Virus record (IMG/VR): IMGVR_UViG_3300035208_002098
Location: 64,001 to 128,000 of that record
From: a virus
Taxonomy: Duplodnaviria; Caudoviricetes
Reading direction: 5' to 3' (one strand)
Length of the DNA stretch: 64,000 bases
The notes beneath the pieces are model-generated. The model was not told where the DNA came from. It saw nothing but the letters and a program-made list of their open reading frames with translations, and did no database searches. The position numbers and the translations under genes are program-made. How positions within the stretch are numbered: position 1 is the stretch's first letter; each line of letters begins with the position of its first letter. Positions 27,059-53,547 of this stretch are shown here, one piece after another.

Positions 27059-27120
27059 ATTATCAATTTTAGATTACAAAGATATGTAAATTTTTTAATA
27101 TATGCAAGTAAATAAATAAA

Positions 27121-27149
27121 AAAAGCCCACCAGCGATAGTGGGCTTTTT
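27121..27149 (-). terminator. intrinsic terminator closing the suppressor-tRNA/Pth2 unit
   Basis: AAAAGCCCAC/GTGGGCTTTT stem with U tract. Confidence 0.8.
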
Positions 27150-27156
27150 ATTAATA

Positions 27157-27627
27157 TTAAGCTTTTGGCTTAATGTCCTTAAGAATCTCACCAATTTCAA
27201 CCTTAACTTTCGTTTCAGTTTCTTTTGTATAATTCACTTGAACGTAACTTATAACTTCAGACATCTTACTCTTCATCAATTTAAAGTTTGGTATAGATAT
27301 TTTAGTTCTTTCATATCCCGGAAACATATATGATTTCCATTCATGTACAGCTACTTTAGCAGCTGAAGTATACATACCCTTATCAACTAAATGTTTTACC
27401 ATTTGACTTAATTTAGTTAAATCATATATACTCACATTACATTTTTCACCATTAAATGTTAATTTAATTGCATGTGGTACACCACCAATTTTAACTGTTA
27501 ATACTTTATAAAAATAGTCAGTGTCTTTATTAATAAATAGATGTTGACTTGTTTTTTCGAAATATTTCATTATTTCTTGTCCAATTACTTGTGACTTGTT
27601 TTCTGTTGTTTTTACTATTGTTTCCAT
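27157..27627 (-). CDS. hypothetical protein downstream of the amber minigene
   Basis: probable start METIVKTT at 27627. Confidence 0.6.
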   Translation of the reverse strand: METIVKTTENKSQVIGQEIMKYFEKTSQHLFINKDTDYFYKVLTVKIGGVPHAIKLTFNGEKCNVSIYDLTKLSQMVKHLVDKGMYTSAAKVAVHEWKSYMFPGYERTKISIPNFKLMKSKMSEVISYVQVNYTKETETKVKVEIGEILKDIKPKA

Positions 27628-27744
27628 AATTTTTTTATATTTTAAGTTTTTTATTATTAATTGTGCTTTATATAGCACTTTTTATTGTTTTTATTATTTA
27701 TTTTTTACCATTTAATAGTGTAATTTATTACACATTCTAATGTT

Positions 27745-27771
27745 TTATGGTGGACGATATATCTATTTCAT
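27745..27771 (-). CDS. amber-containing minigene M-K-(TAG)-I-Y-R-P-P-stop
   Basis: ATG AAA TAG ATA TAT CGT CCA CCA TAA, 10 nt after the Pth2 stop. Confidence 0.5.
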
Positions 27772-27781
27772 ATTGGTAAAA

Positions 27782-28135
27782 TTAAAATAATTGTGATTCT
27801 TCTCTTAAAGCTAATGGTAAATTAGATAATAACTTCCTAGATGCTTCCGATGGTTCGAATGAAACAGCTGTAATTTCATTATCAATATCAGGTTCTCTGA
27901 AGATTGAAATGTTAATATTTCTTAAATTTGCTTTGAAAATCAAATCCTCTAAGTGAGATAAATCTCGTGCAGATAAATGTACTAAGTACTTGGATTTGTC
28001 ATGCCATTCTTTGGCGATTTCTGGATGTTCATGTTGGAATTGGATGCCAGCATGAGATAATTGTGGTGATTGATAGTTATATGGTAATGAACCATTAACA
28101 ACCACGTACAGCTTTTTAATCTATGTTTCTTTCAT
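27782..28135 (-). CDS. Pth2-family peptidyl-tRNA hydrolase with in-frame TAG at codon 5
   Basis: M-K-E-T-(TAG 28121-28123)-IKKLYVVV...QLSHA...W...FREPDIDNEITAV...LPLAL. Confidence 0.72.
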
Positions 28136-29140
28136 AATGTTTAATTTATTAATTATATTATCTTTATATGTTATTCTTATTAATTTAATACCGTTATCAT
28201 TACAGTAATCAGTCTTTATTTTATCTTTTTTAACCCTATCTTTTAAACCTTCTTCACCACCCCATTCATTAACTACCTCAAAATGTTGTCTACCATCATA
28301 TTCAATACATGTATTTAAATCCGGTAAATAAAAATCAAATGGTAGTACTCTTAAATCAACGCAATTTTCAAATATTTTATATTTTATGAAGTTAATATCA
28401 TTAGATATTAAAAATTTTTTTATTTGTTTTTCACCCTTTGATTCATTACATATTTGGCAGCCAGAACCTCTAAGATGGTAATCAGGTTTCTGTTCAAATT
28501 CACCATGTATTGGACAAATTATCTTAACAGGTATTCTCTTATTTATATAATTAACCAATGAATAATCATATTTATAACCATGGACTAATTCAGCTTTATC
28601 TATAAATGTTTTATTATTATGTTTACACCCACTACAATAAGGGCACCCCGAACCATTTATATGATGAGATGGACTTTGTTCAAATTCACCATGGATTGGA
28701 CATATAATAATAACTTTTTTATGAGTTGTTTGATAGTAAACTTTAGAATAGTCGTATTTAAATTTATGAATATTTTGACTATCAACTATAAATTTAAATA
28801 ATGACTTACGTAAAATATCATTTCTTATTATATTACCACATTTTGGGCAATTACAACCTTTTAAATGATTATTAGGTATCTGTTCAAATTCACCATGAAT
28901 AGGACAAATTATTTTTACCTTAGTACACCAATCGATGTAAGATACTTTAGAATAATCGTATTTGTTATTATGAATTAAATTAGCTTTTTCAATAAAATCG
29001 CACATATTAGAAAATTTATTTATATTAAATAAATATCTAGAATTTTTATAAAACACTGTTTGTACAGCTTCATATTGTTGACCTAAATCTTTTCGGTCTA
29101 CAACGTACAATTTTGATTCTTTTGTAATCTAGTGTTTCAT
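28121..29140 (-). CDS. homing endonuclease (zinc-ribbon repeats + Vsr/PD-(D/E)xK domain) fused behind a Pth2-like N-terminus with TAG at codon 4
   Basis: three KYDYS...ICPIHGEFEQ...GCxxC repeats, FDFY...IEYDGRQH; 5' end reads M-K-H-(TAG)-ITKESKLYVVDRKDLG...AVQ. Confidence 0.78.
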
Positions 29141-29270
29141 AACTTTTCTTTTTTAGTTTATATTAATAAATATGTTACAATTTTAAAAAATAATCCTCAA
29201 CTGCGTTTAACCTCTACAGCATAGTTTTGTATAACGTGGTATTATTTCAAATACCTTGTGAATTATTTCG

Positions 29271-29343
29271 TGTCCCTAATCGGGTTCGAACCGATGCACA
29301 CAGGCTTTTAGAGGGCCCGGCTCTGCCACTGAGCTATAAGGAC
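29271..29343 (-). tRNA. amber suppressor tRNA (anticodon CTA)
   Basis: GTCCTTA/TAGGGAC acceptor, GCTC/GAGC D arm, loop CTCTAAA, TTCGAAC T loop. Confidence 0.82.
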
Positions 29344-29828
29344 ATATTTGGGATAGTGGTTAGCAAGCCACATCTAGAACAATATTCAGTATCTGTTAAT
29401 CACGTGATTTGAACGCTATGCTAGTATCACACTAACCAAATTAACCCAAAATATTGGTGATTACCGCTATAGGCTCTCCCCTGACAACTTGTTTTCCCTA
29501 GTAAGGAATTCTTTAGGTTACTAGCCGGGGGTTCGAATCCTTCCTATTGTTCTAAAATGGTAAGATAACAACCATAGGCTTAATTTGGGAAACACTACAC
29601 TAGCTTTTACCTTTTATTAAGTTGCATCCACCAACCACCCCATCTAGAACTTAGGTCTTGGTCTATCGTATATGTAATTAAATTATGTCACCGATTAATC
29701 ACTTCGGCTAGGTTTTGTATTGACTTGCGGTCCGTCAGACCATTTACTGACACCTTGATTACATAATCTAATTACTCTACAAAGATAATTATAATTTTTG
29801 AAAAAAACAAGTGTTTTATCAATTATTT

Positions 29829-32264: not shown

Positions 32265-32281
32265 AATTAAAAATTTTATTG

Positions 32282-32366
32282 AGCCTTCTGTCAGATTCGA
32301 ACTGACGTGTCATTTGCATGAACCGGGTTACAAATCCGGTATAATCGACCACTATATGAAGAAGGC
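32282..32366 (-). tRNA. tRNA-Thr(TGT) with long variable arm
   Basis: GCCTTCT acceptor, loop TTTGTAA, extra arm TCATGCAAATGA. Confidence 0.72.
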
Positions 32367-33945: not shown

Positions 33946-33954
33946 AAATTTTTG

Positions 33955-34039
33955 TGTATCCGGTGGGGCTCGAACCCACGTTGAACATACTGTTCCTACA
34001 TTAAAAGTGTAGAGCCTAAACCAACTCGGCCACAGATAC
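33955..34039 (-). tRNA. tRNA-Lys(TTT) with long variable arm
   Basis: CTACA-CTTTTAA-TGTAG; extra arm GAACAGTATGTTC. Confidence 0.78.
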
Positions 34040-34617: not shown

Positions 34618-34705
34618 AAAAAGAAAGATGAATTTAAAGGAGGGATTAAGTTAGAAAAAATCCATCTCTCAAAGGATAACATTATCAGCACAATAATGTC
34701 AAGTG

Positions 34706-34791
34706 TATCGTATGTGGGATTCGAACCCACGAATCGATTACTCGAAGCCAGCTTGAAAAGCTGGTGACCTAGGCCGCTAGTCTAATACGAC
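34706..34791 (-). tRNA. tRNA-Glu(TTC) with long variable arm
   Basis: CCAGC-TTTTCAA-GCTGG; extra arm TCGAGTAATCGA. Confidence 0.78.
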
Positions 34792-36547: not shown

Positions 36548-36562
36548 ATGTTTATTTTTTTG

Positions 36563-36647
36563 CAGACCCCGTAAGACTCGAACTTACAAACCAATTAAAG
36601 GCATTAGATTCAAAATCTAACGTGTTTACCAATTCCACCAGAGGTCT
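36563..36647 (-). tRNA. tRNA-Gln(TTG) with Leu-like D arm and long variable arm
   Basis: TTAGA-TTTTGAA-TCTAA, G73. Confidence 0.75.
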
Positions 36648-40612: not shown

Positions 40613-40814
40613 ACTTATAAATATAGTGTTATTAATTATAATATCAAGGTTTTATCTTATTAGGGTAATCCACTATTACAATATAATCATTTAATGGTTC
40701 AGACCATAGTTTAGTTGCTGGGCAACCATTTATATGACCAGCATTAATTGCTGGGTGCAAACTATTTTTATCTATAATTTTTTTAATTTCAGAAATAGTT
40801 AAATTTTTCATATT

Positions 40815-41507
40815 CTATTTGATTAAATTAGTGATAGCTTCAGCAATTTCAGGTTTACCAATTAATCTTTCAATTGGGTCAGTATCACCATATGTTCGAA
40901 ATAAGTTTAGATTTGTTTTTTCTAATAAATACCCAATGTGTTGATTTTCACGAACCATTTCAACATTATCATTAGCTATAACGGCATCGGAACCACTTTT
41001 ATCCATTGATTCAATAGCTATTGTAAATAATTCATTTAATGTTAAACCAACTTCATATTTAAAACTAACTAAATAAACATTGGGATTCCATTGCTTAATC
41101 ATAGGTAAAACCTTTGGGTTAACTTTAATAGTTTCTCTCATATATTCTATAAAACCTTCTGGGTCATTACTTTTAAGTTTAACCGGTTTAGTTCTATCAA
41201 AACCAAAATCACTAACGGCCATTGCGTGAATAACCACATCCATATTTGGTACTAACTCACTCATTATGGCTACTAGTGAGTTTACATCACTAATCTCATG
41301 ATATCTAATATTTCTATGATTACCATATAAGTTGTATAGTGTTGGTTTACGACTACCCGTTGCATAAACATAATATACTTCATAACCTAACTCATCAAAT
41401 TGTTGTGCTATTTCAGTACTTAAATTACCAGTACTAATATTAGTTAAAACACGAACATCATCAATATGTTCTTTAGTACCACCAGCTGTTATTAAAACTT
41501 TTTTCAT
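40815..41507 (-). CDS. coaB: phosphopantothenate-cysteine ligase
   Basis: LITAGGTKEHIDDVRVLTNISTG, HAMAVSDF, SFKYE, IAND. Confidence 0.88.
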   Translation of the reverse strand: MKKVLITAGGTKEHIDDVRVLTNISTGNLSTEIAQQFDELGYEVYYVYATGSRKPTLYNLYGNHRNIRYHEISDVNSLVAIMSELVPNMDVVIHAMAVSDFGFDRTKPVKLKSNDPEGFIEYMRETIKVNPKVLPMIKQWNPNVYLVSFKYEVGLTLNELFTIAIESMDKSGSDAVIANDNVEMVRENQHIGYLLEKTNLNLFRTYGDTDPIERLIGKPEIAEAITNLIK

Positions 41508-53335: not shown

Positions 53336-53367
53336 ATATTACCAATATTTCAATGAACTAAATCCAG

Positions 53368-53452
53368 TACGACCTGTAGGATTCGAACCTACGTTATACT
53401 ATTCGCCTCTACTGTGTAAAAGTAGTGCTCTTACCAACTGAGCTAAGGTCGC
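53368..53452 (-). tRNA. tRNA-Val(TAC) with long variable region
   Basis: CTACT-TTTACAC-AGTAG. Confidence 0.78.
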
Positions 53453-53459
53453 ATTTTTG

Positions 53460-53547
53460 AGTACCCGGTCAGATTTGAACTGACGATGAAGCTTTCGCTT
53501 TGGTGGTTTTGCAGACCACCCCCTTCGACCACTCGGAGCACAGATAC
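53460..53547 (-). tRNA. tRNA-Cys(GCA) with long variable arm
   Basis: GTGGT-CTGCAAA-ACCAC, U73, arm AAGCGAAAGCTT. Confidence 0.8.

What the first reader, a model, noticed from the sequence alone, without database searches (positions are those of the whole stretch)
27121..29343. Amber-gated unit: suppressor tRNA(CUA) upstream of a Pth2 gene with an in-frame TAG
Seen: tRNA with loop CTCTAAA at 29271-29343. Downstream on the same strand, three starts are each interrupted by TAG followed by an Ile codon: ATG AAA CAC TAG ATT (29140, a Pth2-like N-terminus now fused to an endonuclease), ATG AAA GAA ACA TAG ATT (28135, full Pth2-like ORF) and ATG AAA TAG ATA (27771). TAG elsewhere in the window behaves as a normal stop (813, 2367, 4781, 15313, 19508, 35446, 40815), so this is not global recoding. 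The TAG is kept in two diverged copies of the Pth2 5' end, which argues against sequencing error. Established: very short ORFs cause peptidyl-tRNA drop-off that Pth recycles, and RF1 reads UAG. Inference: a feedback switch in which Pth2 is made only when the suppressor outcompetes RF1.
Basis: partly seen in the sequence, partly recalled or inferred. Interest (0 to 1): 0.85.

Follow-up and report, generated by a model that had tools for sequence, protein, structure and literature searches.

The report
Amber-gated phage Pth2 operon, endonuclease-invaded
A large phage that uses the normal genetic code carries its own UAG-reading tRNA in one operon with a small tRNA-hydrolase-like gene and a tiny leader gene that each hold an early UAG stop, so they are probably made only while that tRNA overrides the stop; here a selfish nuclease gene has also split the hydrolase gene.

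Summary
A tRNA(CUA) lies at 29271-29343 (- strand). Three starts downstream on the same strand are followed by an in-frame TAG, at 29131, 28123 and 27765. TAG is otherwise an ordinary stop in this 248-kb, 27.7% GC genome.

The pattern is not chance. In 72 of 79 distinct Pth2-like loci from other phages, the gene starts with ATG, 1-5 codons, then TAG (once TAA), then an Ile or Val codon. No start codon lies before the first conserved strand. In 63 of 79 loci a tRNA(CUA) sits within 4 kb. The one TAA-gated phage carries tRNA(UUA) and no tRNA(CUA).

The third site is a conserved amber-gated mini-ORF (MK-UAG-IYRPP-stop). It is found in 45 of 79 loci, against 0-1 in controls.

The two Pth2 5' ends have a simple cause. 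A DUF723/Vsr-type homing-endonuclease cassette (about 29055-28076) inserted at the conserved GYQAVQ..HA motif. It left the old gated start fused to the nuclease and brought a replacement gated start.

Gating by the suppressor is well supported. Its purpose, feedback or otherwise, is untested.

This scan has already found the tRNA(CUA)/Pth2 cassette on other DNA. I found no published description.

The parts
29780..29811 (-). Promoter-like motif (CTTG, about 20 nt, TATCTTTG) that opens the unit
   Evidence: The motif occurs 7 times in the window, all on the - strand, against 0.11 expected. The same motif at 27077-27108 opens the next unit. It is conserved in L015 and L016. Assigning it to a Bacteroidota-type promoter is an inference.
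29344..29779 (-). Conserved non-coding stretch ahead of the tRNA, holding a 58-nt segment (29523-29580) that is inverted relative to the close relative L015
   Evidence: 92% identical to L015 5257-5758. The 58-nt segment is 100% identical in reverse orientation. No Rfam match at E<=1. Function unknown.
29271..29343 (-). tRNA with anticodon CUA (amber suppressor type); no encoded CCA; discriminator A
   Evidence: The anticodon stem shows compensatory changes against the L015 copy (G-C to A-U, C-G to G-C; sequences).
29056..29140 (-). Old amber-gated Pth2 5' end (ATG 29140, TAG 29131-29129), now fused in frame to the endonuclease ORF
   Evidence: 84% identical to L015 5748-6055, where it is the start of an intact Pth2 gene. 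The protein P0004 N-terminus matches it.
28076..29055 (-). Inserted homing-endonuclease cassette. It holds three DUF723/DUF4379 zinc-ribbon repeats, a Vsr-like nuclease domain and the first 20 codons of a replacement Pth2 5' end. The endonuclease ORF may start at ATG 29005 or by read-through from ATG 29140. It ends at the TAG 28123-28121.
   Evidence: Absent from the close relatives L015 and L016. Pfam DUF4379 and DUF723. PHROG 559 at E 1e-77 and PHROG 9084 'homing endonuclease'. Three 81-nt repeats. 992 phage records hold homologues.
27782..28135 (-). Pth2-like gene with an amber gate: ATG 28135, TAG as codon 5 (28123-28121), stop TAA 27784-27782
   Evidence: PF01981 scores 20.5 bits, just under the cut-off of 23. 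The family profile matches solved Pth2 2zv3 at E 9.8e-9. Homologues align from the residue after the TAG.
27745..27771 (-). Amber-gated mini-ORF: M K UAG I Y R P P stop
   Evidence: Conserved as M-x-UAG-(I/V)-x-(R/K)-(A/G)-P-P/T-stop in 45 of 79 loci. Controls with TGA or TAA as the inner stop, or on the other strand, give 0-1.
27663..27733 (-). Two small hairpins (27733-27718 and 27678-27663) between the mini-ORF and the next gene
   Evidence: Fold. Relatives have a hairpin of different sequence at the same distance upstream of the homologous gene. A regulatory role is an inference.
27157..27627 (-). Conserved 156-aa gene of unknown function that follows the mini-ORF
   Evidence: Homologues lie downstream of Pth2 in at least 13 loci. 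The start context is in the 97th percentile. The model is confident (pLDDT 86.8) but has no convincing fold match.
27120..27149 (-). Intrinsic terminator closing the unit
   Evidence: 13-pair stem followed by a T-run on the - strand.

Best explanation
The stretch 29811-27120 (- strand) is one operon built around a phage amber-suppressor tRNA. Its order is: promoter, a conserved untranslated RNA stretch, tRNA(CUA), a Pth2-like gene, an 8-codon mini-ORF, a conserved 156-aa gene, and a terminator.

The Pth2-like gene and the mini-ORF each begin with a good ATG start, followed within 2-4 codons by UAG. UAG is a normal stop in this phage. A ribosome therefore ends there after a di- to tetrapeptide unless charged tRNA(CUA) beats release factor 1. 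When it does, the full Pth2-like protein is made, and the mini-ORF is read on to its Arg-Pro-Pro-stop end. Output of the operon's proteins is thereby tied to the activity of the suppressor tRNA.

In this phage a DUF723/Vsr-type homing-endonuclease cassette has inserted into the Pth2 gene at the conserved GYQAVQ..HA motif. The old gated 5' end now runs in frame into the nuclease gene. The cassette supplies a diverged, again amber-gated, replacement 5' end, whose TAG also serves as the nuclease's stop codon.

Shown: the anatomy, its conservation and the linkage. Inferred: actual read-through, which residue is inserted, and the purpose. My preferred purpose is to couple a tRNA-recycling or clean-up enzyme, or a brake on the suppressor, to the level of suppression.
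For: (1) The tRNA is real: 50.7 bits in Rfam, with compensatory stem changes.

(2) 72 of 79 distinct homologous loci have ATG, 1-5 codons, a stop (71 TAG, 1 TAA), and no ATG/GTG/TTG before the conserved K-L-Y/I-V strand. The next codon encodes Ile (50) or Val (13) through several synonymous codons. The base after the stop is always a purine. None of the 72 has CAA or CAG at that position.

(3) Codons after the TAG vary synonymously between relatives (GGC/GGT/GGA, GAC/GAT, AAA/AAG, TCT/TCA/TCC), so they are translated in this frame.

(4) 63 of 79 loci hold a tRNA(CUA) within 4 kb, all but one on the same strand and often under 200 nt away. This includes the close relatives L014-L016 and the cultured mycobacteriophage Alice.

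(5) Gate codon and anticodon change together. The one phage with TAA at the Pth2 gate (L007) also has TAA in its mini-ORF. It carries a tRNA(UUA) and no tRNA(CUA) among its 40 tRNAs.

(6) Within this genome, start-context scores put ATG 28135 in the 90th percentile of real starts, GTG 28105 in the 1st, and TTG 29110 in the 3rd.

(7) The genome is not recoded.

(8) Database proteins that show 'Q' at this position are TAG translated with code 15.

(9) For the cassette: it is absent from L015 and L016, with junctions at 29056 and 28075. The same layout recurs with the same nuclease family in L017, L022 and L023, and with a NUMOD3-type nuclease in L047 and L051.
Against: - Nothing is experimental.
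- The window's Pth2 copy has Asn and Ser where at least 90% of relatives have Arg and Asp. The copy in this phage may therefore be impaired.
- Against solved Pth2, the family lacks the Gly-Lys loop, so hydrolase activity is not assured.
- A suppressor also reads through the TAG stops of 26 phage genes, although the extensions are short.
- The same genome encodes an RF1-type factor that would oppose suppression.
- In actinophages such as Alice and Myrna, a GTG with a well-placed Shine-Dalgarno sequence directly follows the TAG. The gate can therefore be bypassed in some lineages.
- 16 of 79 loci show no tRNA(CUA) within 4 kb.
Confidence: 0.75

Rival explanations
1. The TAGs are true stops. M-K-x-stop minigenes act as upstream ORFs, and Pth2 is made by re-initiation or internal initiation downstream (ATT, CTG, GTG 28105 or TTG 29110), without any suppressor.
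For: Short ORFs next to a peptidyl-tRNA hydrolase gene recall the lambda bar minigenes (from established knowledge). In Alice and Myrna a GTG start with a fitting Shine-Dalgarno sequence follows the TAG. In the window, GTG and TTG lie 5-6 codons after the TAGs.
Against: - 72 loci have no canonical start between the stop and the conserved strand.
- The codon after the stop is conserved at the amino-acid level (Ile/Val through five codons). It is often GTA or GTT, which are not start codons.
- The Leu anchor codon is TTG in only 8 of 72 loci, no more than elsewhere in the gene.
- The start context of GTG 28105 is no better than random.
- This view explains neither the linked tRNA(CUA) nor the TAA/UUA switch.
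Confidence: 0.1
2. In this particular phage the Pth2 locus is decaying after endonuclease invasion. The TAGs are inherited baggage of a mobile tRNA-Pth2 cassette and no longer regulate anything useful.
For: The replacement 5' end has Asn and Ser at two near-invariant positions (Arg, Asp). The Pfam score falls under the cut-off. The old 5' end is a fragment.
Against: - The frame is intact over 117 codons.
- The 3' 91 codons are 93% identical in DNA to L015. They show 7 synonymous and 7 non-synonymous codon differences, 4 of the latter in the six cassette-derived codons before the invariant His.
- The start context is excellent.
- The gate, mini-ORF and downstream gene are all kept as in relatives.
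Confidence: 0.1
3. The phage uses partial TAG-to-amino-acid recoding (code 15-like) for a block of genes, and the Pth2 TAG is just one of many sense TAGs.
For: The suppressor tRNA is present. Some relatives (L001, L025, L066, L083) have a further TAG inside Pth2, and some loci gain ORF cover under code 15.
Against: In the whole 248-kb genome, reading TAG as sense adds less ORF length than the TGA control. Every other candidate has an ordinary ATG start after the TAG. 26 long ORFs on the coding strand end in TAG with short extensions.
Confidence: 0.03
4. The UAG is passed without the tRNA, by ribosome hopping or by near-cognate read-through programmed by the local sequence. The neighbouring tRNA(CUA) serves another purpose.
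For: The purine after the stop is a known leaky context (from established knowledge).
Against: No take-off and landing codon pair and no downstream structure is conserved around the gate. The gate codon tracks the suppressor anticodon in the TAA/UUA phage. The physical linkage is tight.
Confidence: 0.05

Closest known systems
Stop-codon-recoded phages with phage-encoded suppressor tRNAs (TAG read as Gln, code 15; crAss-like, Lak and jumbo phages; PMC9523058, PMC13037316, PMC10879173)
   Same: A phage tRNA(CUA) competes with host RF1. Genes carrying in-frame TAG are made only when it wins. The arrangement is thought to time gene expression.
   Different: Here the genome keeps the standard code. 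Only one operon (two or three sites) carries in-frame TAG. The TAG sits at codons 3-5 next to the tRNA gene, and the gated gene is a translation-quality enzyme rather than a structural or lysis gene.
prfB (RF2) autoregulation through an early in-frame UGA, and this phage's own RF1-type gene with CUU-UAG-C
   Same: An early in-frame stop codon acts as a sensor of how that stop is being decoded.
   Different: prfB needs a +1 frameshift and senses release-factor shortage. The Pth2 gate stays in frame and needs a suppressor tRNA.
Archaeal/eukaryotic peptidyl-tRNA hydrolase Pth2 (PF01981; PDB 2zv3, 1rzw/3erj, 1q7s). Its presence in jumbo phages is noted in PMC7824862 and in XacN1 (PMC5852040).
   Same: Same fold family by profile (E 9.8e-9). 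The R-x-D-L strand, the Q..H.A helix start and the acidic/Thr motif are shared by the family.
   Different: The Gly-Lys loop of solved Pth2 is absent. The window copy also lacks the Arg and Asp. No paper I could search mentions the early TAG or the tRNA linkage. The XacN1 authors state that they could not find targets for its two CUA tRNAs.
Free-standing homing endonucleases of T4-like and jumbo phages that carry flanking replacement sequence (seg and mob genes; the MobA/gene 60 cassette)
   Same: The nuclease gene sits in a conserved motif of a host gene. It shows presence/absence polymorphism between close relatives. The diverged sequence it carries restores the gene and probably protects the site.
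   Different: The old 5' end is kept in frame with the nuclease. The nuclease ORF ends on the amber gate of the restored gene, so suppression would yield fusion products.
RAPP/RGPP/RAGP ribosome-arrest peptides (SecM, ApdA, ApdP; PMC7897499, PMC10951233, PMC12992588)
   Same: Small ORFs upstream of a regulated gene that end in Arg-(Ala/Gly)-Pro-Pro or similar.
   Different: The peptides are only 8-13 residues long. The window's ends in Y-R-P-P. An amber codon precedes the motif. Arrest is untested, and the papers report that the motif alone is not sufficient.

Membership tests
tRNA (Rfam RF00005), amber-suppressor type | Cloverleaf scoring above the family cut-off, with anticodon CUA | tested here: met
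   50.7 bits against 29. ARAGORN gives anticodon cta.
tRNA (Rfam RF00005), amber-suppressor type | Transcribed, processed, aminoacylated and active at UAG | not testable with these tools
The linked tRNAs of relatives have varied acceptor stems and discriminators, so the inserted residue may differ between phages.
Peptidyl-tRNA hydrolase 2 (PF01981) | Sequence match above Pfam's gathering score | tested here: inconclusive
   The window protein scores 20.5 bits against a cut-off of 23. Most relatives carry a precomputed PF01981 hit. The family profile hits solved Pth2 chains at E 1e-8 to 1e-4.
Peptidyl-tRNA hydrolase 2 (PF01981) | Conserved active-site residues of solved Pth2 (the Lys of the Gly-Lys loop and the Asp of the D-A-G motif; identities recalled from the literature, not checked here) | tested here: not met
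   In the profile alignment to 2zv3 the Gly-Lys loop is a gap, and the Asp column holds Glu of the invariant E-P-D. The window copy also has Asn and Ser at the family's Arg and Asp. I therefore call it Pth2-like.
Peptidyl-tRNA hydrolase 2 (PF01981) | Hydrolysis of peptidyl-tRNA | not testable with these tools
   Needs an enzyme assay.
Code-15 (TAG-recoded) phage | Many genes interrupted by in-frame TAG; a clear gain in coding density when TAG is read as sense | tested here: not met
Code-15 (TAG-recoded) phage | Phage-encoded tRNA(CUA) | tested here: met
DUF723/Vsr-type homing endonuclease cassette | Nuclease gene of a known homing family, present or absent at the same conserved site in close relatives | tested here: met
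   DUF4379 and DUF723. PHROG 559 and 9084. Absent in L015 and L016 with clean junctions. The same site is invaded in L017, L022, L023, L047 and L051.
DUF723/Vsr-type homing endonuclease cassette | Cleavage of the uninterrupted target site | not testable with these tools
   Needs an in vitro cleavage assay.
RAPP-like arrest peptide | C-terminal R-(A/G)-P-P core | tested here: inconclusive
   The window has Y-R-P-P. Relatives have RAPP, KAPP, RGPT, RGP, RPP or KPP.
RAPP-like arrest peptide | Ribosome arrest that controls the downstream gene | not testable with these tools
   Needs toeprinting or a reporter. PMC12992588 reports that the motif alone is insufficient.
prfB-type programmed frameshift | +1 shift at the in-frame stop | tested here: not met
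   Pth2 continues in frame 0 through the TAG. The phage's RF1-type gene does show CUU-UAG-C with the GGQ part in +1.

The most novel reading that the evidence does not exclude
The phage carries a self-contained circuit that sets and senses how UAG is decoded in the infected cell. It has four parts:
- a suppressor tRNA(CUA);
- an RF1-type factor made only by a +1 shift at UAG;
- a Pth2-like enzyme made only by read-through of UAG;
- a UAG-gated Pro-Pro leader that switches on a conserved unknown gene.

Together these would act as a homeostat or timer for stop-codon suppression. The Pth2-like enzyme would act on the suppressor's own acylated or peptidyl form.
Probability: 0.2. Interest if true: 0.9.

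Novelty: new variant of a known kind. Interest (0 to 1): 0.8.

Why it matters
Many large phages with the standard code carry CUA tRNAs whose targets have not been found. The XacN1 paper says so outright (PMC5852040). This locus, and about 70 relatives, give those tRNAs a concrete, conserved target.

It shows stop-codon suppression used as a gene-specific switch rather than a genome-wide code change. It links suppression to a translation clean-up enzyme and to a Pro-Pro leader peptide.

It also offers compact natural parts (tRNA, gate, leader) for testing how phages tune termination. The endonuclease invasion shows that the gate is copied along with mobile DNA.

Tried and rejected
- Close relatives in GenBank phages: megablast of 12 kb found none.
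- Function of the 156-aa downstream gene: no Pfam or PHROG family. The ESM Atlas search gave only weak unnamed hits. The AlphaFold model is confident, but Foldseek against the PDB found nothing at E<=0.001 and VIA-align gave at best Z 4.6. No fold was assigned.
- Solved relatives of the endonuclease: none by sequence.
- RNA families for the 430-nt stretch ahead of the tRNA and for the tRNA's 3' flank, including HDV-like ribozymes: no Rfam match at E<=1. The theta-ribozyme descriptor of PMC10879173 was not available to test. ARAGORN at lowered threshold called a permuted tmRNA there with a nonsense tag, which I discount.
- A long-range helix around the mini-ORF, predicted for the window, is not kept in L014 or L016 by eye. 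I dropped it.
- Consensus fold of the tRNA 3' flank: only one invariant 6-bp hairpin and no covariation.
- Other genome-wide candidates for early in-frame TAG (10 places): all have ordinary ATG starts just after the TAG.
- TTG enrichment at the Leu anchor as a hidden start: not found.
- Complex prediction and the large profile search were not used, because no claim here depends on them.
Full report
**What is there**

The window is part of a 248,412-bp phage genome with 27.7% GC. The genome carries 48 tRNA genes and a tmRNA.

ARAGORN and Rfam both find a tRNA with anticodon CUA at 29271-29343 on the - strand, scoring 50.7 bits against a cut-off of 29. Downstream on the same strand, the sequence shows three ATG starts followed shortly by TAG:
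- ATG 29140, with TAG at 29131-29129.
- ATG 28135, with TAG at 28123-28121.
- ATG 27771, with TAG at 27765-27763.

From 29140 to 27782 the frame is open if the two TAGs are read through.

**TAG is otherwise a stop in this phage**

On the coding strand, 255 ORFs of at least 80 aa end in TAA, 26 in TAG and 18 in TGA. After a TAG stop the next in-frame stop comes after a median of 4.5 codons. Reading TAG as sense adds less ORF length than reading TGA as sense.

I listed every long ORF that has an ATG and then a TAG shortly upstream in frame. All except the two at this locus have an ordinary ATG start just after the TAG. The locus is therefore a local exception, not part of a recoded genome.

**The gate is a hallmark of the gene family**

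The 112 residues after the second TAG belong to a phage Pth2-like family:
- Pfam PF01981 scores 20.5 bits for this copy, just under the cut-off.
- Relatives carry PF01981.
- A profile of 29 members matches solved Pth2 structures at E 9.8e-9.

I collected 79 distinct loci from IMG/VR, GenBank and metagenome assemblies. In 72 of them the gene reads ATG, 1-5 sense codons, a stop codon (TAG 71 times, TAA once), then 1-9 codons up to the conserved K-L-Y/I-V first strand. No ATG, GTG or TTG lies in between.

- The codon after the stop encodes Ile in 50 loci and Val in 13, through ATT, ATC, ATA, GTA and GTT.
- The following codons differ between relatives mainly at synonymous positions.
- The base after the stop is always A or G.
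- No member has CAA or CAG at the gate position.
- Database proteins that show Q there are TAG translated with code 15.
- The Leu anchor codon is TTG no more often than elsewhere in the gene.

These points show that the codons after the TAG are translated in frame, and that the stop codon itself is under selection.

**Linkage to the suppressor, and a co-variation test**

A tRNA(CUA) lies within 4 kb of the gene in 63 of 79 loci. All but one are on the same strand, and often less than 200 nt away. These include the close relatives L014, L015 and L016. In the cultured mycobacteriophage Alice, the record itself annotates a suppressor tRNA (cta) 250 nt after the hydrolase gene.

One locus, L007, from a 675-kb phage, has TAA instead of TAG at the gate. 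I predicted an ochre-type suppressor and searched that record. Among its 40 tRNAs there is one with anticodon UUA and none with CUA. Its downstream mini-ORF also uses TAA as the inner stop. This is a single case, but it is what decoding by the phage's own suppressor predicts.

**Where translation starts in the window**

I built a position weight matrix of start contexts from 164 long genes of this genome. Percentiles are relative to real starts:

| Candidate start | Percentile |
|---|---|
| ATG 28135 | 90th |
| ATG 29140 | 26th |
| ATG 27771 | 30th |
| GTG 28105 | 1st |
| TTG 29110 | 3rd |

The last two are no better than random positions.

**Why there are two Pth2 5' ends**

The closest relatives are L015 (Pth2 85% identical) and L016 (78%). 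Both have tRNA(CUA), then one gated Pth2 gene, and no nuclease. The window aligns to L015 as follows:
- 29350-29056 to L015 5748-6055.
- 28075-27803 to L015 6037-6309.
- 27772-27100 to L015 6694-7373.

The stretch of about 29055-28076 is therefore an insertion. It encodes a nuclease with three DUF723/DUF4379 zinc-ribbon repeats and a Vsr-like C-terminal domain. It also holds the first 20 codons of a diverged replacement 5' end of Pth2.

The break lies in the codons for the invariant Q..Q..H.A motif. The old 5' end (29140-29056) now continues in frame into the nuclease. The nuclease could also start at ATG 29005. The nuclease ORF ends on the TAG that is codon 5 of the restored gene.

The same layout recurs in other phages. 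The old gated start is fused in frame to a nuclease inserted within five codons of the same motif:
- with the same nuclease family in L017, L022 and L023;
- with a NUMOD3-type nuclease in L047 and L051.

I did not re-examine that one.

The replacement 5' end has Asn and Ser where at least 90% of relatives have Arg and Asp. The window's enzyme may therefore be weakened. The rest of the gene is 93% identical in DNA to L015, with an intact frame.

**The third site**

ATG 27771 opens an 8-codon mini-ORF, M-K-UAG-I-Y-R-P-P-stop, ten bases after the Pth2 stop.

Mini-ORFs of the form M, 1-6 residues, UAG, Ile/Val, a few residues, then Arg/Lys-(Ala/Gly)-Pro-Pro or Arg-Gly-Pro-Thr, then TAA, occur in 45 of 79 loci, mostly just downstream of Pth2. 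Examples are MK*IDKPP, MM*IYRAPP, MN*IKAPP and MEYT*VVIRGPT. The same search with TGA or TAA as the inner stop, or on the opposite strand, finds 0-1.

The mini-ORF is followed by a small hairpin and a conserved gene of 122-156 aa. In the window this gene is at 27627-27157, and it is found downstream of Pth2 in at least 13 loci.

The endings resemble the RAPP/RGPP/RAGP cores of ribosome-arrest peptides (PMC7897499, PMC10951233, PMC12992588). Those papers also report that the core alone is not sufficient. I therefore treat a stall-based switch as an inference.

The downstream protein folds confidently (pLDDT 86.8) but has no recognisable relative.

**The unit as a whole**

A promoter-like motif (CTTG, about 20 nt, TATCTTTG) occurs 7 times in the window, all on the - strand, against 0.11 expected. 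It sits at 29811-29780 and again at 27108-27077. A strong terminator lies at 27149-27120. The tRNA, nuclease, Pth2, mini-ORF and 156-aa gene thus form one delimited unit.

A short conserved A/T-rich element also precedes the gated ATG and could be a second promoter.

There is also a tmRNA. The phage therefore has several devices that touch UAG decoding and ribosome rescue.

**How it most likely works**

Ribosomes start at the good ATG sites and meet UAG after two to four codons. Without suppression they release a tiny peptide. With charged tRNA(CUA) they continue, making the Pth2-like protein and reading the mini-ORF to its Pro-Pro end.

- The gate sits in a non-conserved N-terminal tail.
- The linked tRNAs of different phages have different acceptor stems and discriminators.
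- So the inserted residue probably does not matter. What matters is whether the stop is overridden.

I give about 0.75 to gating by the suppressor. The purpose is open. It could couple a tRNA clean-up enzyme to the cost of read-through, act as a brake on the suppressor, or act as a timer.

Against a strong claim:
- Nothing is experimental.
- The family lacks the Gly-Lys loop of solved Pth2.
- Actinophage members can start at a GTG right after the TAG.
- The phage's own RF1-type factor would oppose suppression.

**Novelty**

Phage suppressor tRNAs and genome-wide TAG recoding are known (PMC9523058, PMC13037316, PMC10879173). Pth2 in jumbo phages is known (PMC7824862). My seven literature searches (one search concerned arrest peptides only) found no description of an early conserved TAG in phage Pth2 or of its linkage to CUA tRNAs. 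The XacN1 paper reports two CUA tRNAs with no identifiable target, and a Pth gene, without connecting them.

This scan has noted the same cassette before in many other genomes. My conclusions rest on the tests above, not on those notes.

Specific to this window and report:
- the endonuclease invasion that duplicated the gate;
- the TAA/UUA co-variation test;
- the control-backed count of the Pro-Pro mini-ORF;
- the operon boundaries;
- the start-context test.

Noticed in passing
window 29523-29580 (within 29344-29779): A 58-nt segment is 100% identical to the reverse complement of L015 5518-5575, while the surrounding 500 nt are colinear at 92%. It holds a T-arm-like GGTTCGAATCC. It could be an invertible segment or an assembly difference. 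No Rfam family matches the region.
   Followed up: partly
whole genome; in the window e.g. 32281-32366, 33954-34039, 34705-34791, 36562-36647, 53367-53452, 53459-53547: Many tRNA isoacceptors come in pairs. One has normal length and one is 83-90 nt with a long variable arm, for amino acids that normally have class I tRNAs (Thr, Lys, Glu, Gln, Val, Cys, Arg, Asn, Ile, Trp, Met).
   Followed up: no
   Followed up: partly
window, 7 sites: 4335, 27077, 29780, 38254, 46988, 47922, 63404: A promoter-like motif (CTTG, about 20 nt, TATCTTTG) lies on the - strand, 7 found against 0.11 expected. It fits the Bacteroidota -33/-7 type (from general knowledge).
   Followed up: partly
L037, L041, L048, L059, L067, L070, L075, L076, L085, about 600 nt upstream of Pth2: In one subfamily of phages, a ~190-aa gene with a weak HD-domain match also starts M-S-(L)-UAG. 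It would be a further amber-gated gene of the cassette.
   Followed up: partly
L128 (Mycobacterium phage Alice) 1470-1480 and 2101-2173; L003 (Myrna) 590-600: Cultured cluster C mycobacteriophages have ATG (or GTG)-TAG-GTG at the start of their peptidyl-tRNA hydrolase gene and an annotated suppressor tRNA (cta) nearby. Here a Shine-Dalgarno sequence fits the GTG after the TAG.
   Followed up: partly
window 40811-40817: The TAG stop of a 230-aa gene is followed one codon later by the in-frame ATG of a 55-aa ORF. A suppressor would fuse the two products.
   Followed up: no
L015 6310-6693 against window 27803-27772: The close relative has an extra 119-aa Cys-rich gene between Pth2 and the mini-ORF. 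It is absent from the window.
   Followed up: no
window 29141-29190: An A/T-rich element of about 45 nt directly before the gated ATG is conserved in L014, L015 and L016, even where the rest of the spacer is missing. It may be a second promoter or a translation signal.
   Followed up: no
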